From a virus (lineage: Duplodnaviria; Heunggongvirae; Uroviricota; Caudoviricetes): a DNA stretch of 32,775 nt. The notes beneath the pieces were generated by a model. That model was not told the DNA's origin. It made no database searches and saw nothing but the letters and a program-made list of their open reading frames with translations. Shown one piece after another: positions 1 through 31,337 of the stretch (the stretch's first letter is position 1; every line of letters begins with the position of its first letter). The stretch lies in IMG/VR virus record IMGVR_UViG_2913152634_000001. The stretch is one strand, 5' to 3'. A program made the translations under genes and the position numbers.

Positions 1-981
1 TTATAACGTCACTCCGCCTTTTAGTGGATTCAGAGCGACGGCATTTTGCAGATAGTCAGGCGCAAGGTGCGCATAGGCCATCGTCTGCTGAATGCTCGCA
101 TGTCCCAGAATCTGTTGCAGTGCGATTATATTGCCCCCATTCATCATGAAATGGCTTGCGAATGTATGCCGCAGGATGTGGGTTGCCTGATTGGGTGGTA
201 TATCAGGTTTCACTCTGCGTAAAATCCCGCAAAATTTCTCATAATCAACTTTGAATAATTTGGCGCTGGCCTCCTCTTTAACTTTTTTCTCCAGTTCCTC
301 AGAAATCGGCACGGTTCGCTTTTTACCGTTTTTGGTTTTCAGGAAGGTAACCCTGCAATTTGTAATCTGTGCTGGTTTTAGCGTGGCAACTTCCGTCCAT
401 CTTCCTCCAGTGCTCAGACATAAAAGCGCGACAAGTAAGTCATCACCAGCCAAAACATTTAACAGTTTTTCGATTTCTGCTTTTTCCAGGAACGTCATTT
501 CAGGGTTGGCCTCCGCCAGTGGCGGCAGTCCGTGAATTGGGTGTTGCCCGGAAAATTCATCCAATTGAATTAATTTTGTGAACATGCCGGATAATCGGTA
601 CATGTCACGGTTTATCGTTGCGGCACTGATACCATCACGTAGTCGCATGGAACGATAATCCATCAAAGCCCTTTTGCTCATCCTGCTCACTGGTATATCA
701 CCTATGCCGCTGATGGTTTTGAGTAGATGATTAAACTCTTTTGTTCCATGCTCGTGGTTTTGCCCGTGATATTTCCACCAGATGTCCAGCAACTCACTCA
801 AAGTCCGGCGGTCTGCTCGCTGGCCTCCCCATTCTTTCTGACTGGCATTGGCGATTGTGTATCGCTCAAATGCTAGTGCTTCAGCTTTTCTTTCGAATTT
901 CCTGCGGATGCGTTTTCCGTCGCGACCGCGAGGTCTAATGTCCACTTCATAGCGACCATCATCGAGCTTCTTAATTGCCAT
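1..981 (-). CDS. int: P2-family tyrosine integrase (site-specific recombinase)
   Basis: ORF 1..1011 on the minus strand; C-terminal HILRHTFASHF...LGHASIQQTMAYAHLAPDY is a tyrosine-recombinase catalytic signature. Preferred start is the ATG at 979-981 (MAIKKLDDGRYEVDIRP, as I recall P2 Int begins), with GGAGGG about 7 nt upstream; the ATG at 1009-1011 has no Shine-Dalgarno. The stop codon is at 1-3, so attL lies outside the window. Confidence 0.9.
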   Translation of the reverse strand: MAIKKLDDGRYEVDIRPRGRDGKRIRRKFERKAEALAFERYTIANASQKEWGGQRADRRTLSELLDIWWKYHGQNHEHGTKEFNHLLKTISGIGDIPVSRMSKRALMDYRSMRLRDGISAATINRDMYRLSGMFTKLIQLDEFSGQHPIHGLPPLAEANPEMTFLEKAEIEKLLNVLAGDDLLVALLCLSTGGRWTEVATLKPAQITNCRVTFLKTKNGKKRTVPISEELEKKVKEEASAKLFKVDYEKFCGILRRVKPDIPPNQATHILRHTFASHFMMNGGNIIALQQILGHASIQQTMAYAHLAPDYLQNAVALNPLKGGVTL

Positions 982-1050
982 AAGAAAGCCCTCCGGCGCT
1001 GTATTCACCATCTTGGTAGCAAATGGTGAAAATGTAATCTTTATATAGAG

Positions 1051-1344
1051 TTAGCCAATCCTTTTCGCGGAGTGGTTGGACTCTGTTGACTCTGGCCCAA
1101 TGTGCGCGAGAGCCGGTGCGATTTGTCCTGCGTCCGGCGCGGTTTTATCTGTCATAAGCCATAGAGCATATTTTTGGAATGTGGGATGCATAGTGATTTT
1201 TAGCAAAGCTGTGCCACCGGGTTCAAAGTTTCCTCCTTCATATTTTTTAAGTGTGCTTAGCGGTAACTCTATGATTTCACAGAATTTTGATTGGCTTAGC
1301 CCTTCAGCCTCACGCAAGGCCTTAATCTTTTCGCTTAATTTCAT
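1051..1344 (-). CDS. C: P2 C-type immunity repressor
   Basis: 97-aa ORF divergent from cox and adjacent to int; C-terminal YALWLMTDKTAPDAGQIAPALAHIGPE resembles the P2 C repressor family as remembered; N-terminal helix-turn-helix-like segment. Confidence 0.8.
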   Translation of the reverse strand: MKLSEKIKALREAEGLSQSKFCEIIELPLSTLKKYEGGNFEPGGTALLKITMHPTFQKYALWLMTDKTAPDAGQIAPALAHIGPESTESNHSAKRIG

Positions 1345-1465
1345 TTGACATGGTGCCTATATAGGGACTAAATTCCCTCAAAACTGGAACCTATATAGGT
1401 TCCATTGATTTGAGAATAAACCAGCGTCTAAACGGTTTTGAGTGGTTTAGAAAGGGCTGGATCCT
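1345..1465. promoter_or_regulatory. C/cox immunity switch region with candidate Pe/Pc promoters and palindromic operator-like sites
   Basis: Intergenic between divergent C and cox. Consensus TTGACA at 1345-1350 on the plus strand. The palindrome CCTATATAGG occurs twice (1356-1365 and 1390-1399), the second embedded in the perfect 18-bp palindrome GGAACCTATATAGGTTCC (1386-1403). Confidence 0.55.
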
Positions 1466-1753
1466 ATGAGGGTACCATATATGGACGCTGAAAATTATGT
1501 GATTCAGTATCCGCTTGATGCGGTTCATGTGGATAAATTTGCTGATTTATTAGGGAAGCCAAAGACAGCTGTCAGTGAAATGGTGAAGGCAAATAAATTA
1601 CCAATTATTGAATTGCGTGATCCTTGCAAACCGAAGGCTCGTGCCGGTGAAAAATGGGTTTTCATTCCTGAGTTTAATCGCGCTGTACGTGAGGCGTTTT
1701 ATAACCGACCGGTTGAACAGCGTGATGCATGGCTTTTGTGGATGGGGTTGTGA
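1466..1753 (+). CDS. cox: Cox-like excisionase/early-promoter regulator
   Basis: 95-aa ORF as first gene of the rightward early operon, divergent from C; size and position match P2 cox/186 apl. Start could instead be the internal Met at 1481. Confidence 0.7.
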   Translation: MRVPYMDAENYVIQYPLDAVHVDKFADLLGKPKTAVSEMVKANKLPIIELRDPCKPKARAGEKWVFIPEFNRAVREAFYNRPVEQRDAWLLWMGL

Positions 1754-1755
1754 TT

Positions 1756-1926
1756 ATGAATGAGCCGCGTTGTATTGCTCAGTTACTGCGTAACGAAAGC
1801 CCCAGGGCGATTGACTTCACAATCACCCACGGGAAGGGACGCAAGGGAATCATTATCCGCACCAAAAAACAGAGTCCGTTAAAAAAGGCTCTGACCTTTC
1901 TGAAAAGCCGGAGGGTATGGAAATGA
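1756..1926 (+). CDS. hypothetical small early protein
   Basis: ATG at 1756 directly after the cox stop (1751-1753); 56 aa, MNEPRCIAQLLRNESPRAIDF...; no recognised motif. Confidence 0.4.
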   Translation: MNEPRCIAQLLRNESPRAIDFTITHGKGRKGIIIRTKKQSPLKKALTFLKSRRVWK

Positions 1927-2423
1927 CAGTGATGACGCTCAATCTCGTTGAAAAACAGCCAGCAGCTATGCGCCGGATAATTGGCAAGCATCTTGCTGTC
2001 CCTCGCTGGCAGGATACATGTGATTATTATAATCAGATGATGGAACGCGAACGGCTAACGGTTTGCTTCCATGCGCAGTTAAAACAGCGTCACGCAACGA
2101 TGCGTTTTGAAGAAATGAACGACGTCGAACGTGAACGGCTGGTTTGTGCAATTGATGAATTGCGTGGGGCATTCTCAAAACGCCGTCAGGTTGGCGCAAG
2201 TGAGTATGCATATATTAGTTTTTTAACAGTCAGTCAGCGTCGTACTTTATTTATGCATGCCGGATTGACTGAAAAAGAATTCAACCAGCCATACTGGCGA
2301 ATTAATGAAGAATCATGTTACTGGCGTGATGCTTTATTCCGTGCATTACGTGAATTATTCAGCCTGTTTGAGTATGCACCGACAATTCTGACGTCGGTAA
2401 AACCAGAGCAATATCTGCATTAA
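1917..2423 (+). CDS. hypothetical phage early-region protein
   Basis: 168-aa ORF in the early operon between cox and A; no motif recognised; may start at the Met at 1923. Confidence 0.55.
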   Translation: MEMTVMTLNLVEKQPAAMRRIIGKHLAVPRWQDTCDYYNQMMERERLTVCFHAQLKQRHATMRFEEMNDVERERLVCAIDELRGAFSKRRQVGASEYAYISFLTVSQRRTLFMHAGLTEKEFNQPYWRINEESCYWRDALFRALRELFSLFEYAPTILTSVKPEQYLH

Positions 2424-2486
2424 ATAATTAACCAGAGTTTTTAACGCACTTAATCGTGCGGGGCTTCTTTTTGCCTGGAGAAAGTC

Positions 2487-2711
2487 ATGCATACAGTTTC
2501 TGAAAACAAGTGCGGTAAATACGCATTACTGCTGCAACAGGCCAGAGCCGAAGCACAGGCCGACGCAGCGACACGCTTTTCTTCTCATCTTGACGCCATG
2601 ATTCGCCATATCACAAAGGCGGAGTTATCCCGCGTGGAGATAGTCGAGCTGCTCAGTCAGGAGTCGGAAAAATTTCACAATATCGGATTGTCTCGCGGGG
2701 AGGTGCTTTGA
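2487..2711 (+). CDS. hypothetical early protein
   Basis: 74-aa ORF; AGGAGA-like Shine-Dalgarno (ctggagaaagtcATG); stop overlaps the next start (ATGA at 2708-2711), indicating translational coupling. Confidence 0.5.
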
Positions 2712-3013
2712 TGTCCTGTTCTCATTCAGTTGTATTACTGAATAACGCCTTAAAAATCGCCGTTATGAAAAATGGTGATTTGTCTCTTATTCAACTTGGT
2801 ATTGATAAAGAGAAGCGCGAAATAACTGAATCTGTTATCGCGATTTATCAGAGTGAATTAAACCTCCTGTCTGATGTGGTCAATTTACTTGTTAAACGCG
2901 CTGTATTCCACAAGCAAATTTCCTCAGTGGATGAACTGACAAAATTAACGACAGAACTCGCCAGTTATTGCGCTGATGAATTTAAGAAGCTGAACGACAA
3001 AAGGAGCTGGTAA
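2708..3013 (+). CDS. hypothetical early protein
   Basis: 101-aa ORF coupled to its neighbours by overlapping start/stop codons; occupies the orf80/orf81-like position of P2. Confidence 0.5.
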
Positions 3014-3237
3014 TGCCGGACAACGTAGATTTTATTCAGGAACAACAGGCTGAATTACTGGAGCGCCAGATTAACGCGGCAAGGGTAAAACATTGCGGTG
3101 CTTCTGCGCTGGTTTGCGAAGAGTGTGACGCGCCAATACCTGCTGCCCGTCGTGCTGCTTATCCGTCAGCCACGCGATGTGTTTCCTGTCAGTCAGTCTT
3201 TGAAGCAAAAAACAAACATTACCGGAGAACGGCATGA
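3013..3237 (+). CDS. TraR/DksA-type C4 zinc-finger protein
   Basis: 74 aa with two CxxC pairs (CEECDAP...CVSCQ) at the spacing typical of TraR/DksA C4 zinc fingers; same position as the P2 zinc-finger ORF upstream of A. Confidence 0.7.
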   Translation: MPDNVDFIQEQQAELLERQINAARVKHCGASALVCEECDAPIPAARRAAYPSATRCVSCQSVFEAKNKHYRRTA

Positions 3238-3509: not shown

Positions 3510-5814
3510 AGCCTCCGGGCGTTTTGTCCCTCCGTCAGCATTTGCCGCAGGCACCGGTAAGACGTTTACCGGTGCTTATGCATGGAACGCGCCACGCGAG
3601 GCTGTCGGGCGCGAAAGACCCCTTACACGTGACGAGATGCGTCAGGTGCAAGGTGTTTTATCCACGATTAACCGCCTGCCTTACTTTTTGCGCTCGCTGT
3701 TTACTTCACGCTATGACTACATCCGGCGCAATAAAAGCCCGGTGCACGGGTTTTATTTCCTCACATCCACTTTTCAGCGTCGTTTATGGCCGCGCATTGA
3801 GCGTGTGAATCAGCGCCATGAAATGAACACCGACGCGTCGTTGCTGTTTCTGGCAGAGCGTGACCACTATGCGCGCCTGCCTGGAATGAATGACAAGGAG
3901 CTGAAAAAGTTTGCCGCCCGTATCTCATCGCAGCTTTTCATAATGTATGAGGAACTCTGCGATGCCTGGGTGGATGCGCATGGCGAGAAAGAATCACTGT
4001 TTACGGATGAGGCGCAGGCTCACCTGTATGGTCATGTTGCTGGCGCTGCACGTGCTTTCAATATTTCCCCGCTCTACTGGAAAAAATACCGTAAAGGGCA
4101 GATGACCACGAGGCAGGCATATTCTTCCATTGCCCGTCTGTTTAACGATGAGTGGTGGACTCATCAGCTTAAAGGCCAGCGTATGCGCTGGCATGAGGCG
4201 TTACTGATTGCTGTCGGGGAGGTGAATAAAGACCGTTCTCCTTATGCCAGCAAACATGCCATTCGTGATGTACGTGCACGCCGCCAGGCAAATCTGGAAT
4301 TTCTTAAATCGTGTGACCTTGAAAACAGGGAAACCGGCGAGCGCATCGACCTTATCAGTAAGGTGATGGGCAGTATTTCTAATCCTGAAATTCGCCGGAT
4401 GGAGCTGATGAACACCATTGCTGGCATTGAGCGTTACGCCGCCGCAGAGGGTGATGTGGGGATGTTTATCACGCTGACCGCGCCGTCAAAGTATCACCCG
4501 ACACGTCAGGTCGGAAAAGGCGAAAGTAAAACCGTCCAGCTAAATCACGGCTGGAACGATGAGGCATTTAATCCAAAGGATGCGCAGCGTTATCTCTGCC
4601 ATATCTGGAGCCTGATGCGCACGGCATTCAAGGATAATGATTTACAGGTCTACGGTTTGCGTGTCGTCGAGCCACACCACGACGGAACGCCGCACTGGCA
4701 TATGATGCTTTTTTGTAATCCACGCCAGCGTAACCAGATTATTGAAATCATGCGTCGCTACGCGCTCAAAGAGGATGGCGACGAAAGAGGAGCTGCGCGA
4801 AACCGTTTTCAGGCAAAACACCTTAACCGGGGCGGTGCTGCGGGGTATATCGCGAAATACATCTCAAAAAACATCGATGGCTATGCACTGGATGGTCAGC
4901 TCGATAACGATACCGGCAGGCCGCTGAAAGACACTGCCGCGGCTGTTACCGCATGGGCGTCAACGTGGCGCATTCCGCAATTTAAAACGGTTGGCCTGCC
5001 GACAATGGGGGCTTACCGTGAACTACGCAAATTGCCGCGCGGCGTCAGCATTGCTGATGAGTTTGACGAGCGCGTCGAGGCTGCACGCGCCGCCGCAGAC
5101 AGTGGTGATTTTGCGTTGTATATCAGCGCGCAGGGTGGGGCAAATGTCCCGCGCGATCGTCAGACTGTCAGGGTCGCCCGTAGCCCGTCGGATGACGTTA
5201 ACGAGTACGAGGAAGAAGTCGAGAGAGTGATCGGCATTTACGCGCCGCATCTCGGCGCGCGTCATATTCATATCACCAGAACGACGGACTGGCGCATTGT
5301 GCCGAAAGTTCCGGTCGTTGAGCCTTTGACTTTAAAAAGCGGCATCGCCGCGCCTCGGAGTCCTGTCAATAACTGTGGAAAGCTCACCGGTGGTGATACT
5401 TCGTTATCGGCTCCCACACCGACTGAGCACGCCGCAGCAGTGCTTAATCTGGTTGATGAGGGTGTCATCGAATGGAGTGACCCGGAGGTCGTGAAGGCGC
5501 TCAGGGGCGCATTAAAACACAACCTGAGAACACCAAATCGTCAGCAAAGAAACGGAAGCCCGTTAAAACCATATGAAATGGCACCATCGGCCAGACTGAC
5601 CAGGTCGGAACGAATGCAAATTACCCGTATCCGTGTTGACCTTGCTCAAAAGGGTATCAGGCCGCAGCGATGGGAGCTCGAAGTGTTGGCACGAGGCGCT
5701 ACTGTTAGTTATGAGGGACAAAATTTTGCATTCACGGATAGCCATGACTGGAGTGGTTTTGCTGAACACTTGTGTAAGTTCACAGAGATATTGCAATTGC
5801 CTCCGGATAAGTAA
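3499..5814 (+). CDS. A: replication initiation protein A (rolling-circle nicking endonuclease)
   Basis: Large early ORF; start placed at the ATG at 3499 (MAVKASGRFVPPSAFAAGTGK, as I recall P2 gpA begins), giving 771 aa. The track ORF extends upstream to 3457. Confidence 0.9.
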   Translation: MAVKASGRFVPPSAFAAGTGKTFTGAYAWNAPREAVGRERPLTRDEMRQVQGVLSTINRLPYFLRSLFTSRYDYIRRNKSPVHGFYFLTSTFQRRLWPRIERVNQRHEMNTDASLLFLAERDHYARLPGMNDKELKKFAARISSQLFIMYEELCDAWVDAHGEKESLFTDEAQAHLYGHVAGAARAFNISPLYWKKYRKGQMTTRQAYSSIARLFNDEWWTHQLKGQRMRWHEALLIAVGEVNKDRSPYASKHAIRDVRARRQANLEFLKSCDLENRETGERIDLISKVMGSISNPEIRRMELMNTIAGIERYAAAEGDVGMFITLTAPSKYHPTRQVGKGESKTVQLNHGWNDEAFNPKDAQRYLCHIWSLMRTAFKDNDLQVYGLRVVEPHHDGTPHWHMMLFCNPRQRNQIIEIMRRYALKEDGDERGAARNRFQAKHLNRGGAAGYIAKYISKNIDGYALDGQLDNDTGRPLKDTAAAVTAWASTWRIPQFKTVGLPTMGAYRELRKLPRGVSIADEFDERVEAARAAADSGDFALYISAQGGANVPRDRQTVRVARSPSDDVNEYEEEVERVIGIYAPHLGARHIHITRTTDWRIVPKVPVVEPLTLKSGIAAPRSPVNNCGKLTGGDTSLSAPTPTEHAAAVLNLVDEGVIEWSDPEVVKALRGALKHNLRTPNRQQRNGSPLKPYEMAPSARLTRSERMQITRIRVDLAQKGIRPQRWELEVLARGATVSYEGQNFAFTDSHDWSGFAEHLCKFTEILQLPPDK

Positions 5815-5828
5815 GGGGAGATTGCACT

Positions 5829-6875
5829 ATGCAAATGCAGCATCTGATGGTTGGCTATCCTAAGTACTACCAAACGGCCGATTATGCGTTGAGGCTTTCA
5901 GTGATGGCTGATATAGCAACAATGAGAATGAAGGCTCTGCACTTCTGGGATAAACACGGTATTTCTGCAGCTTCTGAAGCCTTTGGCGTGTCCTGCCGCA
6001 CGCTTTACTGGTGGCGTCAGTTACTGAACAAGGAAGGACCTGAGGGGCTAATCCCGCACAGTAAGGCACCTCTGGTGCGACGAAAAAAACACTGGCATCC
6101 CGATGTGCTGAAAGAGATTCGACGCCTCAGGACAGAGCTGCCGAACCTCGGTAAAGAGCAGATTTTTGTTCGCCTGAAGCCCTGGTGCGAACAGCGCTAT
6201 CTGGCCTGTCCGAGTGTTTCCACCATCGGCAGAATGATCGCTGCCGCACATGATAAAATGCGGATGATACCTGTGCGTCTGGGATCGCGGGGGAAGGCAC
6301 TGCTTGTCAAAAAGCGGTCTGCCAAACCCCGCAGGCCAAAGCACTACCGCCCGGTAAAGACAGGTGAGCTCATTGGGATGGACGCCATTGAGCTCAGAAT
6401 GGGCGAACTGCGTCGCTATGTCATCACCATGATCGACGAATGCAGCAATTACGCGCTGGCACTGGCTGTGCCGTCACTCAACAGTGATATCGTCAATCAC
6501 TTCTTCAGCCGCGCAGCCCGGTTGTTCCCGGTCGGTATCAGCCAGATAATCACAGATAACGGAAAAGAGTTCCTGGGAAACTTCGACAAAACGCTGCAGG
6601 AAGCCGCTATCAAACACCTCTGGACCTATCCCTACACGCCAAAAATGAACGCTATCTGTGAACGTTTTAACCGGACGTTAAGAGAGCAGTTTATTGAATT
6701 TAATGAGATTTTACTCTTTGAAGATCTGGCGCTATTTAACCAGAAGCTGGCGGAATATCTGGTGCTGTATAACAGCAAAAGACCCCACAAGGCGCTCGCA
6801 CTAATGACGCCCGTGGAATATATTTTAAAAGAGAATAAAAATTGCAATATGTGGTGGACCCATACAACACTTTGA
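5829..6875 (+). CDS. DDE integrase-core (rve) transposase-like protein with N-terminal helix-turn-helix, IS481-like architecture
   Basis: 348-aa single ORF: N-terminal helix-turn-helix-like segment (GVSCRTLYWWRQ) and a DDE triad (GMDAIE ... ITDNGKEF ... NAICERFNRTLREQF). Strong Shine-Dalgarno AAGGGGAG at 5815-5822, immediately after the A stop. Not a gene of canonical P2. Confidence 0.75.
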   Translation: MQMQHLMVGYPKYYQTADYALRLSVMADIATMRMKALHFWDKHGISAASEAFGVSCRTLYWWRQLLNKEGPEGLIPHSKAPLVRRKKHWHPDVLKEIRRLRTELPNLGKEQIFVRLKPWCEQRYLACPSVSTIGRMIAAAHDKMRMIPVRLGSRGKALLVKKRSAKPRRPKHYRPVKTGELIGMDAIELRMGELRRYVITMIDECSNYALALAVPSLNSDIVNHFFSRAARLFPVGISQIITDNGKEFLGNFDKTLQEAAIKHLWTYPYTPKMNAICERFNRTLREQFIEFNEILLFEDLALFNQKLAEYLVLYNSKRPHKALALMTPVEYILKENKNCNMWWTHTTL

Positions 6876-20896: not shown

Positions 20897-21419
20897 TTCG
20901 CGACTGCTGCCGACCGGCTCATCACCGCTTGAAGTCGCCGCTGCAAAAGCCTGTGCGGAAATTGAAAAAACGCCGGTCAGTATTCGTGAGCTGTGGAACC
21001 CGGACACCTGCCCGGCAAATCTGCTGCCGTGGCTGGCGTGGGCGTTTTCGGTCGACAGATGGGATGAAAAGTGGCCGGAAGCGACCAAACGCGCCGTTAT
21101 CCGCGATGCCTATTTCATCCACTGTCATAAAGGCACTATAGGTGCAATCCGGCGTGTGGTGGAGCCGCTGGGCTATCTCATCAACGTGACGGAGTGGTGG
21201 GAAACCAGTGACCCGCCCGGCACCTTCCGGCTTGATATTGGTGTACTGGAAAGCGGTATCACAGAGGCAATGTATCAGGAAATGGAACGGCTGATTGCTG
21301 ATGCCAAACCTGCAAGCCGTCACCTTATTGGCCTGAACATTTCCCGCGACATTCCCGGCTACCTGTTCGCCGGTGGTGTGGCTTACGACGGCGATGTAAT
21401 TACGGTTTACCCCGGATAA
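20889..21419 (+). CDS. I: baseplate/tail protein I
   Basis: 176-aa ORF overlapping the J stop; P2 gpI size and position. Confidence 0.85.
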   Translation: MSDSRLLPTGSSPLEVAAAKACAEIEKTPVSIRELWNPDTCPANLLPWLAWAFSVDRWDEKWPEATKRAVIRDAYFIHCHKGTIGAIRRVVEPLGYLINVTEWWETSDPPGTFRLDIGVLESGITEAMYQEMERLIADAKPASRHLIGLNISRDIPGYLFAGGVAYDGDVITVYPG

Positions 21420-21429
21420 GTGAGGAATA

Positions 21430-23358
21430 ATGAGCACAAAATTCAAAACCGTTATCACCACTGCCGGTGCAGCAAAGCTGGCAGCGGCAACCGCACCGGG
21501 AGGGCGGAAGGTCAACATTACCACGATGGCCGTCGGGGATGGCGGTGGTAAATTGCCTGTCCCGGATGCCGGACAGACCGGGCTTATCCATGAAGTCTGG
21601 CGACATGCGCTGAACAAAATCAGCCAGGACAAACGAAACAGTAATTATATTATCGCAGAGCTGGTTATTCCGCCGGAGGTGGGCGGTTTCTGGATGCGTG
21701 AGCTTGGCCTGTACGATGATGCGGGAACGTTAATTGCCGTGGCGAACATGGCCGAAAGCTATAAGCCAGCCCTTGCCGAAGGCTCAGGACGTTCGCAGAC
21801 CTGTCGCATGGTCATCATCGTCAGCAGTGTGGCCTCAGTGGAGCTGACCATTGACACCACAACGGTGATGGCGACGCAGGATTACGTTGATGACAAAATT
21901 GCAGAGCACGAACAGTCACGACGTCACCCTGACGCCTCGCTGACCGCAAAAGGTTTTACTCAGTTAAGCAGTGCGACCAACAGTACGTCTGAAACACTGG
22001 CTGCAACGCCGAAAGCGGTTAAGGCCGCATATGACCTGGCTAACGGGAAATATACCGCACAGGACGCTACCACAGCGCGAAAAGGTCTTGTCCAGCTCAG
22101 TAGTGCCACCAACAGCACGTCTGAAACGCTCGCCGCAACACCAAAAGCGGTAAAAGCAGCATATGACCTGGCTAACGGGAAATATACCGCACAGGACGCT
22201 ACCACAGCGCGAAAAGGTCTTGTCCAGCTCAGTAGTGCCACCAACAGCACGTCTGAAACGCTCGCCGCAACACCAAAAGCGGTAAAAGCAGCATATGACC
22301 TGGCTAACGGGAAATATACCGCACAGGACGCCACCACAGCGCGAAAAGGCCTTGTCCAGCTCAGTAGCGCCACCAACAGTGATTCTGAAACGCTGGCCGC
22401 AACACCAAAAGCAGTGAAGTCTGCCTATGACAATGCTGAAAAACGTCTTCAGAAAGATCAGAACGGTGCGGATATTCCGGGAAAGGATACCTTCACGAAA
22501 AATATCGGTGCCTGTCGTGCTTATAGTGGCGCTTTGAGCACTGAAGCCGGAAACTGGACAACCGCGCAGTTTATTGAATGGCTGGATTCCCGTGGTGCAT
22601 TTAATCATCCGTACTGGATGTGCAAATGTTCATGGTCATACGGCAATAATAAAATTATTACCGATACTGGCTGTGGAACTATTCATCTTGCAGGTTGCGT
22701 TATTGAGGTTATGGGTAATAAAGGTGCCATGACCATCCGTGTAACAACACCAAGCACTTCCACCGGAGGCGGCACCACTAACGCTCAATTCACTTATATT
22801 AATCATGGTGATGCTTATGCCCCCGGCTGGCGACGAGACTACAACACGAAAAACCAGCAGCCTGCATTTGCTTTAGGGCAAACAGGAAGCAGGGTTGCAA
22901 ATGATAAAGCTGTTGGCTGGAACTGGAATAGCGGTGTTTATGATGCAGATATCAGCGGTGCATCGACATTAATCCTCCACTTCAATATGAATGCGGGGAG
23001 TTGCCCTGCCGTACAGTTCCGTGTGAATTATAAGAACGGCGGTATTTTTTATCGTTCAGCACGTGATGGTTATGGATTTGAGGCTGACTGGTCAGAGTTT
23101 TACACCACAACCCGCAAACCCTCTGCGGGAGATGTTGGTGCATATACCAAAGCTGAATCGGATTCTCGCTATGTACGAGATATTCGCCTGGGCACACGTG
23201 TTGTTCAGACTATGCAAAAAGGTGTGATGTATGAAAAATCAGGCCATGTAATTACAGGGCTTGGTATTGTCGGTGAAGTCGATGGTGATGACCCCGCAGT
23301 ATTCAGACCAATACAAAAATACATCAATGGCACATGGTATAACGTCGCACAGGTGTAA
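21430..23358 (+). CDS. H: tail fibre protein H with internal tandem fibre repeats
   Basis: 642-aa ORF after I; contains 3.6 tandem copies of a 44-aa unit (QLSSATNSTSETLAATPKAVKAAYDLANGKYTAQDATTARKGLV), a phage tail-fibre repeat; divergent, more AT-rich C-terminal domain. Confidence 0.85.
   Translation: MSTKFKTVITTAGAAKLAAATAPGGRKVNITTMAVGDGGGKLPVPDAGQTGLIHEVWRHALNKISQDKRNSNYIIAELVIPPEVGGFWMRELGLYDDAGTLIAVANMAESYKPALAEGSGRSQTCRMVIIVSSVASVELTIDTTTVMATQDYVDDKIAEHEQSRRHPDASLTAKGFTQLSSATNSTSETLAATPKAVKAAYDLANGKYTAQDATTARKGLVQLSSATNSTSETLAATPKAVKAAYDLANGKYTAQDATTARKGLVQLSSATNSTSETLAATPKAVKAAYDLANGKYTAQDATTARKGLVQLSSATNSDSETLAATPKAVKSAYDNAEKRLQKDQNGADIPGKDTFTKNIGACRAYSGALSTEAGNWTTAQFIEWLDSRGAFNHPYWMCKCSWSYGNNKIITDTGCGTIHLAGCVIEVMGNKGAMTIRVTTPSTSTGGGTTNAQFTYINHGDAYAPGWRRDYNTKNQQPAFALGQTGSRVANDKAVGWNWNSGVYDADISGASTLILHFNMNAGSCPAVQFRVNYKNGGIFYRSARDGYGFEADWSEFYTTTRKPSAGDVGAYTKAESDSRYVRDIRLGTRVVQTMQKGVMYEKSGHVITGLGIVGEVDGDDPAVFRPIQKYINGTWYNVAQV
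21961..22440 (+). repeat. 132-bp tandem repeat (about 3.6 copies) inside H
   Basis: Unit starts at 21961, 22093, 22225 and 22357; copies 2 and 3 differ at only about 2 positions; copy 1 differs mainly at synonymous sites; copy 4 diverges after about 80 bp. Confidence 0.9.
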
Positions 23359-23361
23359 TTT

Positions 23362-23889
23362 ATGCAGCATTTAAAAAATATTACTGCGGGTAATCCCAAA
23401 ACTGTTGCTCAATATCAACTGACAAAAAATTTTGATGTTATTTGGTTATGGTCTGAAGACGGAAAAAACTGGTATGAGGAAGTAAGTAATTTTCAGGAAG
23501 ACACGATAAAGATTGTTTACGACGCGAATAATATAATTGTCGGCATCACCAGAGATGCTTCAACGCTTAACCCTGAAGGTTTTAGCGTTGTCGAGGTTCC
23601 TGATATTACCGCCAACCGACGTGCTGATGACTCAGGTAAATGGATGTTTAAGGATGGTGCCGTGATTAAGCGGATTTATACGGCAGACGAACAGCAGCAA
23701 CTGGCAGAATCACAAAAGGCAACTTTGCTTTCCGAAGCCGAATCCGTGATTGTGCCGCTGGAGCGCGCTGTCAGGCTGAATATGGCAACAGATGAGGAGC
23801 GTAGCCGACTGGATGCATGGGAGCGTTACAGCGTTCTGGTCAGTCGTGTGGATCCTGCAAATCCTGAATGGCCGGAAATGCCGCAATAA
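23362..23889 (+). CDS. G: tail fibre assembly chaperone
   Basis: 175-aa ORF immediately after H; P2 gpG size and position. Confidence 0.85.
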
Positions 23890-24110: not shown

Positions 24111-24704
24111 ATGTTTACTAAGCGACGATTAAAAAATATTAATTGGGAGGCAAGTTCAGTGATTCTTGCTATGGTTCTCTTTATTGGAAATATATTTTAT
24201 ACGAATCATCGTGATGATATAAGCATGGAGGCTGAGAGAGACAGTATCAGAACAATGTTTGCATATGAAATCGCTAATAACCATCGCGCTCTCACTTTTC
24301 TTGATAAAACGAGAAATATTGGCTTTGACGAAAATTCGGAGCATTTTGTTGGCGAGCCTTTTGCCATTAATGTCAAATCATTAGGAGGGCCTCGCTTACA
24401 GATTGCATTAAACCAGACTGATAAAGTTTTTAAAGCCTACTTCAGTGAATTAAGTAAACTTGATAAAGAGGATGTTACTCTTCTTATGGACTATTACCAT
24501 GAGCAAAGCATCCTGCTGGAGTGTGTAAAATCTACGTTACAGAAGATGAAAAGTAGTAATGATATTAAAGTTGATATTGATGGTTACTTATTAGAAGAAC
24601 ACTTCATGAATGAGTTTAATCTTTCTAATATTTTGCTTAAACGCTATAGCCATTTGTTGTCACAACACCCAAAAAAACCTGAAACAAAAGATTTACATAA
24701 TTGA
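24111..24704 (+). CDS. orphan membrane-anchored protein in the Z/fun-position moron island
   Basis: 197-aa ORF with Shine-Dalgarno AAGGTG; one N-terminal hydrophobic helix (SSVILAMVLFIGNIFY) then a soluble domain; AT-rich relative to the flanking G and FI genes; no motif recognised. Confidence 0.7.
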   Translation: MFTKRRLKNINWEASSVILAMVLFIGNIFYTNHRDDISMEAERDSIRTMFAYEIANNHRALTFLDKTRNIGFDENSEHFVGEPFAINVKSLGGPRLQIALNQTDKVFKAYFSELSKLDKEDVTLLMDYYHEQSILLECVKSTLQKMKSSNDIKVDIDGYLLEEHFMNEFNLSNILLKRYSHLLSQHPKKPETKDLHN

Positions 24705-29694: not shown

Positions 29695-30174
29695 ATGATG
29701 CTCGCGTTAGGTATGTTTGTTTTTATGCGCCAGACGCTGCCACACCAGACCATGCAGCGTGAATCAGATTATCGCTGGCCGTCAAATTCCCGTATCGGTA
29801 AACGGGATGCCTATCAGTTTCTCGGTGTGGGTGAGGAAAACATGACGCTTGCCGGTGTGCTTTATCCCGAACTGACCGGCGGAAAGCTGACGATGACCAC
29901 GCTCAGGCTGATGGCAGATGAAGGCCGGGCGTGGCCGTTGCTGGATGGCACCGGCATGATTTACGGCATGTATGTCATCAGCAGGGTGAGTGAAACAGGG
30001 AGTATTTTCTTTGCAGACGGCACACCCCGAAAAATTGATTTTACGCTGTCGCTCACCCGCGTTGATGAATCACTGGCCGCGCTTTATGGCGATATCGGTA
30101 AACAGGCGGAATCGCTCATCGGTAAGGCTGGCAGTATGGCGACTAAATTCACGGGTATGACGGGGGCGGGATAA
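29695..30174 (+). CDS. U: tail protein U
   Basis: 159-aa ORF; P2 gpU size and position. Confidence 0.85.
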   Translation: MMLALGMFVFMRQTLPHQTMQRESDYRWPSNSRIGKRDAYQFLGVGEENMTLAGVLYPELTGGKLTMTTLRLMADEGRAWPLLDGTGMIYGMYVISRVSETGSIFFADGTPRKIDFTLSLTRVDESLAALYGDIGKQAESLIGKAGSMATKFTGMTGAG

Positions 30175-31337
30175 TGCTGGATGCACTGACATTTGATGCA
30201 GGCAGTACGCTGACGCCGGATTACATGCTGATGCTCGACAGCAGGGATATTACCGGCAATATCAGCGACCGTCTGATGAGCATGACCCTGACGGATAACC
30301 GGGGCTTTGAGGCTGACCAGCTTGATATTGAACTGAACGATGCCGACGGGCAGGTCGGGCTGCCGGTTCGTGGCGCTGTCCTGACGGTGTATATCGGCTG
30401 GAAAGGTTTTGCCCTGGTATGCAAAGGGAAATTTACCGTTGATGAGGTTGAACACCGGGGCGCGCCGGATGTGGTCACCATCCGCGCCCGGAGTGCAGAT
30501 TTTCGCGGGACGCTCAATTCCCGCCGTGAAGGCTCCTGGCATGACACCACGCTCGGTGCGATTGTTGAGGCGATAGCCTCCCGTAACAGGCTGGAAGCCA
30601 GTGTCGCTCCGTCACTGGCCGGAATTAAAATCCCGCACATCGACCAGTCGCAGGAGTCTGATGCAAAATTCCTGACCCGCCTTGCTGAACGCAACGGCGG
30701 TGAGGTGTCGGTAAAAATGGGAAAACTGTTGTTTCTCAAAGCGGGGCAGGGGGTGACGGCCAGCGGTAAAAAAGTCCCGCAGGTCACCATAACCCGCAGC
30801 GACGGCGACCGCCATCATTTTGCGATTGCTGACCGTGGAGCCTATACCGGCGTAACGGCAAAGTGGTTACACACCAAAGACCCGAAGCCGCAAAAGCAGA
30901 AGGTAAAACTGAAACGCAAAAAGAAAGAGAAACACCTGCGCGCACTGGAGCACCCGAAAGCGAAACCAGTCACGCAGAAGAAAGCGCCAAAAGTACCGGA
31001 AGCGCGCGAAGGTGAATACATGGCCGGTGAGGCTGACAACGTTTTTGCACTGACCACGGTATATGCCACGAAAGCACAGGCCATGCGCGCCGCTCAGGCG
31101 AAGTGGGATAAACTGCAACGGGGTGTAGCGGAGTTCTCCATCAGTCTGGCTACTGGTCGGGCAGATATTTACACGGAAACGCCGGTCAAAGTGTCAGGTT
31201 TTAAGCGCGTCATAGACGAGCAGGACTGGACAATCACTAAGGTGACACATTTTCTGAATAATAGCGGCTTCACGACGTCCTTGGAGCTTGAGGTCAGGCT
31301 TTCTGATGTGGAGTACGAAACAGAAGATGATGAGTGA
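30174..31337 (+). CDS. D: tail protein D (late control gene D)
   Basis: 387-aa ORF overlapping the U stop; P2 gpD size and position. Confidence 0.85.
   Translation: MLDALTFDAGSTLTPDYMLMLDSRDITGNISDRLMSMTLTDNRGFEADQLDIELNDADGQVGLPVRGAVLTVYIGWKGFALVCKGKFTVDEVEHRGAPDVVTIRARSADFRGTLNSRREGSWHDTTLGAIVEAIASRNRLEASVAPSLAGIKIPHIDQSQESDAKFLTRLAERNGGEVSVKMGKLLFLKAGQGVTASGKKVPQVTITRSDGDRHHFAIADRGAYTGVTAKWLHTKDPKPQKQKVKLKRKKKEKHLRALEHPKAKPVTQKKAPKVPEAREGEYMAGEADNVFALTTVYATKAQAMRAAQAKWDKLQRGVAEFSISLATGRADIYTETPVKVSGFKRVIDEQDWTITKVTHFLNNSGFTTSLELEVRLSDVEYETEDDE

What the first reader, a model, noticed from the sequence alone, without database searches (positions are those of the whole stretch)
21961..22440. 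Near-identical 132-bp tandem repeats inside tail fibre gene H
About 3.6 in-frame copies of a 44-aa fibre repeat; copies 2 and 3 are almost identical at the nucleotide level, while copy 1 differs mainly at synonymous sites. This suggests recent unit duplication. Such repeats can expand or contract by recombination and change fibre shaft length, and they can collapse in short-read assemblies. They also generate long spurious antisense ORFs.
Basis: seen in the sequence. Interest (0 to 1): 0.45.

Follow-up and report, generated by a model that had tools for sequence, protein, structure and literature searches.

The report
Recently duplicated tail-fibre shaft repeat
A P2-type prophage tail-fibre gene carries four tandem copies of a known 44-amino-acid fibre repeat, two of them nearly identical because one unit was gained recently; related phages carry two to six copies, so this is a real but ordinary example of a known kind of variation.

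Summary
Gene H (21430-23358, +) of a P2-like prophage holds a 132-bp, in-frame tandem array: three full 44-aa units (21949-22344) and about 30 codons of a fourth. Each unit is a Pfam PF03406 "phage tail fibre repeat". Units 2 and 3 differ by 1 nt. Unit 1 differs from unit 2 by 17 nt, but only in codons 1-26 (12 synonymous codons, 2 replacements); codons 27-44 are identical. This gives a 305-bp perfectly periodic span (22027-22331).

E. coli N56 is identical to the window over about 1.3 kb except for one clean 132-nt gap. That fits a single unequal crossover or slippage in the shared 54-nt segment of a three-unit ancestor. Relatives carry 2-6 units, the same Mu S'-like tip sits on 3-, 4-, 5- and 6-unit arrays, and another lineage has three nucleotide-identical units. 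The junction between the N56-like 5' part and the Mu S'-like tip module lies inside unit 4 (22381-22390).

The array is identical in an independent complete genome and in draft assemblies, so one-off misassembly is unlikely. The antisense ORFs show no coding constraint. An effect on shaft length is inferred, not shown. Verdict: real, known kind, low interest.

The parts
21430..23358 (+). Gene H, P2-type tail fibre protein (642 aa)
   Evidence: ORF. Pfam PF12571 at 1.1e-58, PF03406 at 6.8e-81 with 4 stretches, weak gp37_C. Annotated 'tail fiber protein' WP_001357045.1 in the near-identical RefSeq relative. The 5' part is 93.8% identical to P2 gene H.
21430..21882 (+). N-terminal baseplate-attachment domain (aa 1-151)
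   Evidence: PF12571 Phage_tail_fib, profile positions 1-150 of 150.
21949..22080 (+). Repeat unit 1 (R1 type, KGFTQL...)
   Evidence: In-frame 44-aa unit. 17 nt differences from unit 2, all in codons 1-26. Identical to unit 1 of N56.
22081..22212 (+). Repeat unit 2 (R2 type, KGLVQL..T13)
   Evidence: This is the unit, or its equivalent, that is absent from N56 (132-nt gap).
22213..22344 (+). Repeat unit 3, a near-exact copy of unit 2
   Evidence: 1 nt difference from unit 2, at 22332. Identical to unit 2 of N56. In relative L017 units 2 and 3 are 100% identical.
22345..22434 (+). Repeat unit 4 (R4 type, terminal and partial, about 30 codons)
   Evidence: The fourth PF03406 stretch. Diverges from the repeat consensus after codon ~29.
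22027..22331 (.). 305-bp perfectly periodic span (period 132): the footprint of the unit gain
   Evidence: Longest perfect lag-132 run is 173 nt. No single-piece match above 94.4% in any other of 5,426 complete E. coli genomes.
22381..22390 (.). Mosaic junction between the N56-like 5' part and the Mu S'-like tip module, inside unit 4
   Evidence: The window equals N56 at all informative sites up to 22380, except the private change at 22350. It equals VE-V10-F and 95-3192 from 22391 on.
22429..23349 (+). Receptor-binding tip related to phage Mu S' (aa 334-640)
   Evidence: phmmer against PDB chain 8ju3_A: E 2.9e-168, chain residues 177-486. About 99.5% nucleotide identity to the tips of 95-3192, VE-V10-F and 20A24.
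23362..23889 (+). Gene G, tail fibre assembly protein
   Evidence: PF02413 Caudo_TAP at 6.3e-35. RefSeq annotation of the close relative.
21964..22608 (-). Antisense ORF (214 aa), judged non-coding
   Evidence: The reverse frame is stop-free across the repeated units. 13 amino-acid changes in 14 differing codons between units 1 and 2 in this frame, against 2 in 14 in the sense frame. Not annotated.
21960..22376 (-). Antisense ORF (138 aa, TTG start), judged non-coding
   Evidence: Its translation is simply the repeat read backwards. Not annotated.

Best explanation
The array is the repeat-bearing middle section of a P2-type tail fibre (gpH). It consists of tandem 44-aa PF03406 units lying between the conserved baseplate-binding N-terminal domain and an exchangeable receptor-binding tip.

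The units are ancient duplicates. Purifying selection keeps them alike at the protein level, while their synonymous sites have diverged to saturation.

In this lineage one internal unit (R2) was gained recently. The ancestor had three units, arranged a1-b / a2-b' / a4. The 54-nt segment 'b' is shared by units 1 and 2. Misaligned homologous pairing or replication slippage within 'b', upstream of the T/C site at unit position 120, gives a1-b / a2-b / a2-b' / a4. That is exactly the observed sequence, with no substitution since the event.

The product is an in-frame insertion of 44 residues per chain, 132 residues per trimer. This presumably lengthens the fibre without touching either the attachment domain or the tip.

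The same repeat homology also served as the crossover point that joined this 5' part to a Mu S'-like tip (junction 22381-22390 in unit 4).

What is shown: the sequence anatomy, the one-unit difference from N56, copy-number variation among relatives, and the junction. What is inferred: the molecular mechanism (unequal crossover versus slippage), the direction of the event relative to N56, and any effect on fibre length or adsorption.
For: Anatomy and identity of the units.

The window differs from N56 by 0 mismatches over about 21000-22349 apart from one 132-nt gap. N56 unit 1 equals window c1 and N56 unit 2 equals window c3. PMV-1 matches an in-silico collapsed three-unit version at 99.8%.

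Position 120 reads T, T, C in c1, c2, c3. That is what a crossover within 'b' before position 120 predicts.

Synonymous divergence: c1 vs c2 over codons 1-26 has pS 0.66 and dN/dS about 0.05. Over codons 27-44 there are 0 differences in 14 synonymous sites. c2 vs c3 has pS 0.03.

Ordinary four-unit relatives carry a distinct third unit 14-20 nt from unit 2.

Copy number is 2-6 among 121 cluster representatives, and 22 of them have at least one adjacent identical unit pair. A separate lineage (P0110) has units 2, 3 and 4 100% identical in nucleotide sequence, in both a complete genome and a draft.

The same Mu S'-like tip occurs on 3-, 4-, 5- and 6-unit arrays.

The array is identical in an independent complete genome and in drafts.
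Against: Direction cannot be polarised. N56 and PMV-1 could equally be one-unit deletions of a window-like array, and both haplotypes are rare among complete genomes.

Gene conversion of a pre-existing third unit would give the same end product.

No reads were available, so copy number rests on agreement between assemblies. Short-read assemblers tend to return the minimal copy number consistent with the k-mers.

No structure of the repeat could be obtained (monomer AF2 mean pLDDT 36.6), so 'longer shaft' is untested.
Confidence: 0.8

Rival explanations
1. Gene conversion rather than unit gain. A four-unit ancestor (R1-R2-R3-R4, the commonest architecture) had its third unit overwritten by unit 2 through non-reciprocal recombination. 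Units 2 and 3 were homogenised without any change in copy number.
For: The four-unit architecture with the same 642-aa length and the same tip is common (VE-V10-F, 12474III, 20A24, 95-3192). Homogenisation tracts exist in the array: codons 27-44 of unit 1 are identical to unit 2 here but not in 20A24, 95-3192 or EC77. L017 has T->C at 22200, making units 2 and 3 fully identical, which could be a further conversion.
Against: The conversion tract would have to replace exactly one whole unit. The window's flanks and units 1-2 are 100% identical to a three-unit genome (N56). They are 2-5% diverged from every four-unit R1-R2-R3-R4 relative found; the best is 96.6% over 1 kb.
Confidence: 0.13
2. Assembly artefact: the true copy number differs and the array was mis-resolved because of its 305-bp perfectly periodic span.
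For: The perfect span exceeds typical short-read length. Many database homologues are 'partial', ending at contig ends in or just after the gene. The repeat occurs at a median of 2 and up to 17 places per E. coli genome.
Against: The array is 100% identical in an independent complete chromosome. Z1323HEC0355 differs from the window elsewhere by an IS-like element position and three 1-nt gaps. The exact 642-aa protein is encoded on about 10 contigs from NCBI and ENA, two of them over 1 Mb. L018 has 0 nt differences across H, L019 has 1, and L017 has the array in a different phage background. The T/C site at unit position 120 and the b-to-a2 junction require at least four units.
Confidence: 0.04
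3. The antisense ORFs (138 and 214 aa) are real overlapping genes, and the repeat is maintained for their sake.
For: Two long ORFs run antisense across the array.
Against: Substitutions between units 1 and 2 are almost all silent in the sense frame (2 amino-acid changes in 14 codons) but change 13 of 14 codons in the frame of the 214-aa ORF. The 138-aa ORF is only the repeat read backwards from a TTG. Neither is annotated in the close RefSeq relative. The sense product matches curated fibre families over its full length.
Confidence: 0.02

Closest known systems
Bacteriophage P2 gpH tail fibre (AF063097 gene H; Peduoviridae)
   Same: Same J-I-H-G synteny. Same N-terminal PF12571 domain. Same PF03406 units. 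93.8% nucleotide identity over the shared 5' part. Downstream Caudo_TAP chaperone gene G.
   Different: P2 has two units and a different tip (669 aa). The window has four units, two of them near-identical, and a Mu S'-like tip (642 aa).
Pfam PF03406 Phage_fiber_2 ('phage tail fibre repeat')
   Same: Each 44-aa unit matches the 42-position profile nearly end to end: 266 bits summed against a cut-off of 22, in four stretches.
   Different: None in kind. This is one copy-number allele. PF03406 was listed in 2021 among repeat families without a solved structure (PMC8078820).
Phage Mu tail fibre S / S' (PDB 5yvq, 9ki1, 8ju3)
   Same: The tip (aa 334-640) matches the Mu S' part of 8ju3 at E 2.9e-168. 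Mu S carries one copy of the same repeat immediately before its variable part, aligning to unit 4 plus the linker.
   Different: Mu has a single unit and switches tips by Gin-mediated inversion. The window has four units, and I did not look for or see an invertase next to H. The N-terminal domain is P2-type, not Mu-type.
E. coli N56 / PMV-1 and Yersinia phage P37 gpH (three-unit R1-R2-R4 form)
   Same: N56 is identical to the window over about 1.3 kb of gene I, the 5' part of H and the array, apart from one unit. It is identical again from about 23600.
   Different: One unit fewer and a different, longer tip (720 aa).
Adenovirus fibre shaft repeats (analogy only, from general knowledge)
   Same: Trimeric viral fibre whose shaft is built from a variable number of short tandem repeats, with the receptor-binding knob unchanged.
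   Different: Unrelated sequence and fold. For adenovirus the effect of shaft length on tropism has been tested. For P2-type fibres I found no such test.

Membership tests
Pfam PF03406 Phage_fiber_2 repeat | Match to the curated profile above the gathering score | tested here: met
   E 6.8e-81, 266.1 bits against a cut-off of 22. Four stretches; the best covers aa 170-210 and profile positions 1-41 of 42.
Pfam PF03406 Phage_fiber_2 repeat | Tandem arrangement with a fixed period in fibre proteins | tested here: met
   Units spaced exactly 44 aa apart in the window and in 120 homologues with 2-6 units.
P2-type tail fibre gpH (Peduoviridae) | N-terminal tail-collar fibre domain PF12571 | tested here: met
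   E 1.1e-58, aa 1-151, profile positions 1-150 of 150.
P2-type tail fibre gpH (Peduoviridae) | Gene order J - I - H - G (tail fibre assembly) within a P2-type tail module | tested here: met
   Baseplate_J, Tail_P2_I, H, Caudo_TAP, then the sheath. RefSeq annotation of the near-identical prophage lists the full P2 gene set.
P2-type tail fibre gpH (Peduoviridae) | Sequence homology to P2 gene H itself | tested here: met
   93.8% nucleotide identity over query positions 1-720 to AF063097 gene H, with two units fewer.
P2-type tail fibre gpH (Peduoviridae) | Forms a trimeric fibre incorporated in virions | not testable with these tools
   Only a single-chain model could be made, and it failed (mean pLDDT 36.6).
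Mu S'-type receptor-binding tip | Sequence homology to the solved Mu S' tip | tested here: met
   8ju3_A at E 2.9e-168, query aa 334-640 against chain residues 177-486.
Mu S'-type receptor-binding tip | Same receptor specificity as Mu G(-) | not testable with these tools
   Needs adsorption or host-range assays.
Tandem-repeat copy-number polymorphism by unequal homologous exchange or slippage | A relative differing by exactly one unit, with otherwise identical flanks and no novel junction sequence | tested here: met
   N56: one 132-nt gap and 0 mismatches over about 21000-22349. Unit-by-unit identity.
Tandem-repeat copy-number polymorphism by unequal homologous exchange or slippage | Recurrent independent gains and losses in the family | tested here: met
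   Forms seen: R1-R2-R4, R1-R3-R4, R1-R2-R3-R4, R1-R2-R2-R4, five- and six-unit arrays, and a lineage with three identical units.
Tandem-repeat copy-number polymorphism by unequal homologous exchange or slippage | Measurable gain/loss rate and dependence on recA or replication | not testable with these tools
   Needs amplicon sequencing of lysogen or lysate populations.

The most novel reading that the evidence does not exclude
The PF03406 array may be more than a passive spacer. It could be a fast-evolving length-tuning module. On this reading, unit gain and loss happen often enough to produce fibres of different reach on the same receptor-binding tip, and selection sorts them according to the depth of the host's O-antigen or capsule layer. 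The same repeats would double as the homology 'linker' through which tips are swapped.

The evidence allows this. The same tip occurs on 3-6 units, fresh duplications recur in separate lineages, and the tip junction lies inside unit 4. The evidence does not demonstrate any phenotypic effect.
Probability: 0.15. Interest if true: 0.45.

Novelty: already known. Interest (0 to 1): 0.15.

Why it matters
Practically, it matters in three ways:
- It flags a spot where gene length can differ between otherwise identical prophages.
- Short-read assemblies can mis-size or break at this spot.
- ORF finders will call false antisense genes here.

Biologically, it is a clean small example of how tail-fibre genes evolve. 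Ancient repeat units are held constant at the protein level. There is an occasional fresh unit gain. The repeats also serve as the crossover point for swapping receptor-binding tips. For people engineering P2 or P4 particles with new tips, natural fibres show that 3-6 units are tolerated on one tip, and that a junction inside the last unit occurs naturally. None of this changes current understanding.

Tried and rejected
1. **AlphaFold2 of the full H protein** with a 31-sequence alignment of four-unit homologues. Mean pLDDT 36.6, and below 50 from residue 133 on. One chain of a trimeric fibre does not fold alone, so I ran no fold search and drew no structural claim.

2. **PDB sequence searches** with the whole protein and with the array alone. 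Only Mu S and S' chains contain the repeat. I could not tell whether those residues are ordered. The Mu fibre papers (Virology 2024; Nat Microbiol 2019) are not held.

3. **Exact 200-nt pattern spanning units 2-3.** No hits in IMG/VR or in the GTDB species representatives. The fresh duplicate is therefore rare, and this did not help polarise the event.

4. **Allele-frequency polarisation in 5,426 complete E. coli genomes.** Both the four-unit haplotype and the collapsed three-unit haplotype occur in only one or two genomes, so this was uninformative.

5. **Literature searches** for repeat copy number in P2-type fibres. Nothing specific found. Papers on P2 fibre engineering and on P88/pro147 deal with the C-terminal region only.

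6. **Assumption that the window was the RefSeq record NZ_CP148363.1.** Rejected. The two differ by the position and orientation of a 1,096-bp element and by three single-base gaps.

7. **Idea that unit 1 diverged from unit 2 after a recent duplication.** Rejected. Synonymous sites are saturated in codons 1-26 and identical in codons 27-44, so the pattern is ancient divergence plus a homogenised tract.

Full report
**What is there**

Tandem Repeats Finder reports one long-period array in the window: 21970-22412, period 132, 3.4 copies, 94% matches, no indels, score 760. It lies inside ORF 21430-23358 on the + strand (642 aa). In that frame the units are:
- c1, 21949-22080
- c2, 22081-22212
- c3, 22213-22344
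- c4, 22345 to about 22434, of which only the first 29-30 codons are repeat-like

c2 and c3 differ by a single synonymous nucleotide (22200 T versus 22332 C). c1 differs from c2 at 17 nucleotides in 14 codons, 12 synonymous and 2 replacements.

One refinement: every c1/c2 difference lies in codons 1-26, and codons 27-44 are identical. The perfectly periodic stretch therefore runs 22027-22331 (305 bp), out of register with the unit boundaries.

The signal is far beyond chance. The longest perfect run at lag 132 is 173 nt. In 200 codon shuffles the mean was 9.8 and the maximum 13.

**What the gene is**

The product has the P2-type N-terminal fibre domain (PF12571, aa 1-151), four hits to PF03406 'phage tail fibre repeat', and a weak gp37_C hit. 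Its neighbours are Baseplate_J, Tail_P2_I, a Caudo_TAP tail fibre assembly protein and the tail sheath. This is gene H of a P2-like prophage.

The C-terminal 307 residues match the solved phage Mu S' fibre tip (8ju3) at E 2.9e-168. Mu S carries one copy of the same repeat just before its variable part.

The closest complete genome is E. coli Z1323HEC0355. It is 100% identical over the array and 99.98% over 23 kb. It is an independent assembly, not the source of the window: a 1,096-bp element sits elsewhere in the opposite orientation, and there are three single-base gaps.

**Comparison with relatives**

In a panel of 15 related H genes, the unit count is:
- two units: P2 and Wphi
- three units: N56, fiAA91-ss, Yersinia phage P37 and P88
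- four units: the other nine relatives, as in the window

At the nucleotide level the units fall into positional types: R1, R2, R3 (with Asp at position 13) and the terminal R4.
- The common four-unit form is R1-R2-R3-R4, with R3 14-20 nt away from R2.
- N56 and P37 are R1-R2-R4.
- fiAA91-ss is R1-R3-R4. Its second unit is identical to the third unit of EC77.
- Only the window is R1-R2-R2-R4.

A protein search with residues 1-349 returned 120 cluster representatives. With the window's own protein that makes 121, carrying 2, 3, 4, 5 or 6 units (3, 32, 60, 22 and 4 proteins). This is a score-biased sample. 22 of the 121 have at least one adjacent identical unit pair.

In a separate lineage (P0110), units 2, 3 and 4 are 100% identical in nucleotide sequence, in both a complete genome and a draft. 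Other five- and six-unit arrays have well-diverged units.

The same Mu S'-like tip is found on three units (598 aa), four units (642 aa), five and six units.

**How the extra unit arose**

Compared with N56, the window has no mismatch from about 21000 to 22349 apart from one clean 132-nt gap. N56 unit 1 equals window c1, and N56 unit 2 equals window c3.

Write the 5' 78 nt of a unit as 'a' and the 3' 54 nt as 'b'. N56 is then a1-b(T) / a2-b(C) / a4, and the window is a1-b(T) / a2-b(T) / a2-b(C) / a4. A single misaligned exchange or slippage within 'b', upstream of the T/C site at unit position 120, converts the first into the second. It needs no further change. A relative (L017) has C at both positions, which means either a different crossover point or a later conversion.

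Synonymous divergence supports two layers of history:
- c1 versus c2 over codons 1-26: pS 0.66, dN/dS about 0.05. This is ancient divergence under strong purifying selection.
- Codons 27-44: 0 of 14 synonymous sites differ. This is a homogenised tract.
- c2 versus c3: pS 0.03.

The direction relative to N56 cannot be proved. Both haplotypes are rare among 5,426 complete genomes. Whichever came first, the near-identity of c2 and c3 requires a recent duplication or a whole-unit conversion. I put unit gain at about 0.8 and conversion at about 0.13.

**The repeats as a recombination joint**

Site by site, the window follows N56 up to 22380, with one private change at 22350. From 22391 on it follows the VE-V10-F/95-3192 type, then returns to the N56 type at about 23600 in gene G.

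The left junction of the exchanged tip-plus-chaperone module therefore lies inside unit 4. From my own recollection, Haggard-Ljungquist and colleagues (1992) described horizontal exchange of tail-fibre segments among P2, Mu, P1 and lambda. That paper is not held in the library, so this is not a checked citation.

**Assembly question**

I could not see reads. The exact 642-aa protein is encoded on about 10 contigs from independent NCBI and ENA assemblies, two of them over 1 Mb. L018 has 0 nt differences across H, L019 has 1, and L017 carries the array in a different phage background with different cargo. The T/C marker and the b-to-a2 junction force at least four units.

Short-read assemblers return the minimal solution, so a higher true number cannot be formally excluded for the drafts. 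Two finished chromosomes agree on four.

**Antisense ORFs**

Two of the three reverse frames are stop-free across the array. This yields ORFs of 138 and 214 aa.

Between units 1 and 2, 14 codons differ in the sense frame with only 2 amino-acid changes. In the frame of the 214-aa ORF, 13 of 14 differing codons change the amino acid. Nothing is annotated there in the close RefSeq relative. They are by-products of the repeat.

**Function**

Shown:
- an in-frame gain of 44 residues per chain, between the attachment domain and the tip
- natural fibres that tolerate 2-6 units
- tips that are exchanged independently of unit number

Inferred: the extra unit lengthens the fibre. The monomer AlphaFold model was unusable (mean pLDDT 36.6). 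PF03406 was listed in 2021 as a repeat family without a known structure (PMC8078820). Host-range determinants of P2-like fibres have been mapped to the C-terminal region (PMC5285337), so an effect of unit number on host range is not expected but is untested.

**Verdict**

The repeat family, the gene and this exact protein are already in public databases, and copy-number change by recombination between tandem repeats is textbook. Interest is low (0.15). The most novel reading not excluded, adaptive length tuning, gets about 0.15 probability.

Noticed in passing
window 24111-24704 (+): A 197-aa ORF sits between G and the sheath gene, the slot that is variable in P2-type phages. It has no Pfam or PADLOC hit and only PHROG 3829 'unknown function'. 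In the same slot relatives carry a SMEK-domain protein, a Shedu nuclease, or a Cap15-like protein plus an AAA ATPase. It could be an uncharacterised defence or exclusion gene.
   Followed up: partly
window 5771-6866: A 1,096-bp element lies here. Its counterpart in the near-identical prophage of Z1323HEC0355 overlaps a gene annotated 'integrase core domain-containing protein', i.e. IS-like. There it is inverted and on the other side of an AAA-family ATPase gene (record 4844-5939). This suggests recent transposition or inversion.
   Followed up: partly
window 30174-31337 (+): Tail gene D is intact in the window (387 aa, PF05954). In the RefSeq relative it is annotated 'frameshifted'. The two sequences differ by three single-base gaps over 23 kb, which look like sequencing errors in one of the assemblies rather than biology.
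   Followed up: partly
window 22429-23349 (+): The receptor-binding tip of this P2-type fibre closely matches the phage Mu G(-) fibre S' (PDB 8ju3, E 2.9e-168; alignment). This implies a Mu(-)-like receptor preference.
   Followed up: partly
window 22027-22080 versus 22159-22212: The 3' 54 nt of unit 1 are identical to those of unit 2 in the window, N56, P37, VE-V10-F and 12474III. They differ at 4-7 sites in 20A24, 95-3192 and EC77. This is an older homogenisation tract, separate from the unit gain.
   Followed up: yes
L020 3443-3815 versus L021 3443-3815: In the P0110 lineage, a different P2-like prophage, the segment downstream of H is reverse-complemented between a draft and a complete genome, and the tail fibre assembly gene is on opposite strands. 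This looks like a Mu G / P1 C-type invertible fibre segment caught in both orientations.
   Followed up: partly
database homologues P0002-P0121; E. coli genomes: Many H homologues are 'partial', ending at contig ends. One cluster with 358 members stops about 25 residues after the array. The repeat region matches a median of 2 and up to 17 places per E. coli genome. Repeats shared between prophages probably break short-read assemblies at this gene.
   Followed up: no
window 22350, 22527, 22566, 22761: Four substitutions are private to the window's lineage relative to both parental types (N56-like and VE-V10-F/95-3192-like). These are the only changes that may post-date the mosaic's formation.
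   Followed up: no
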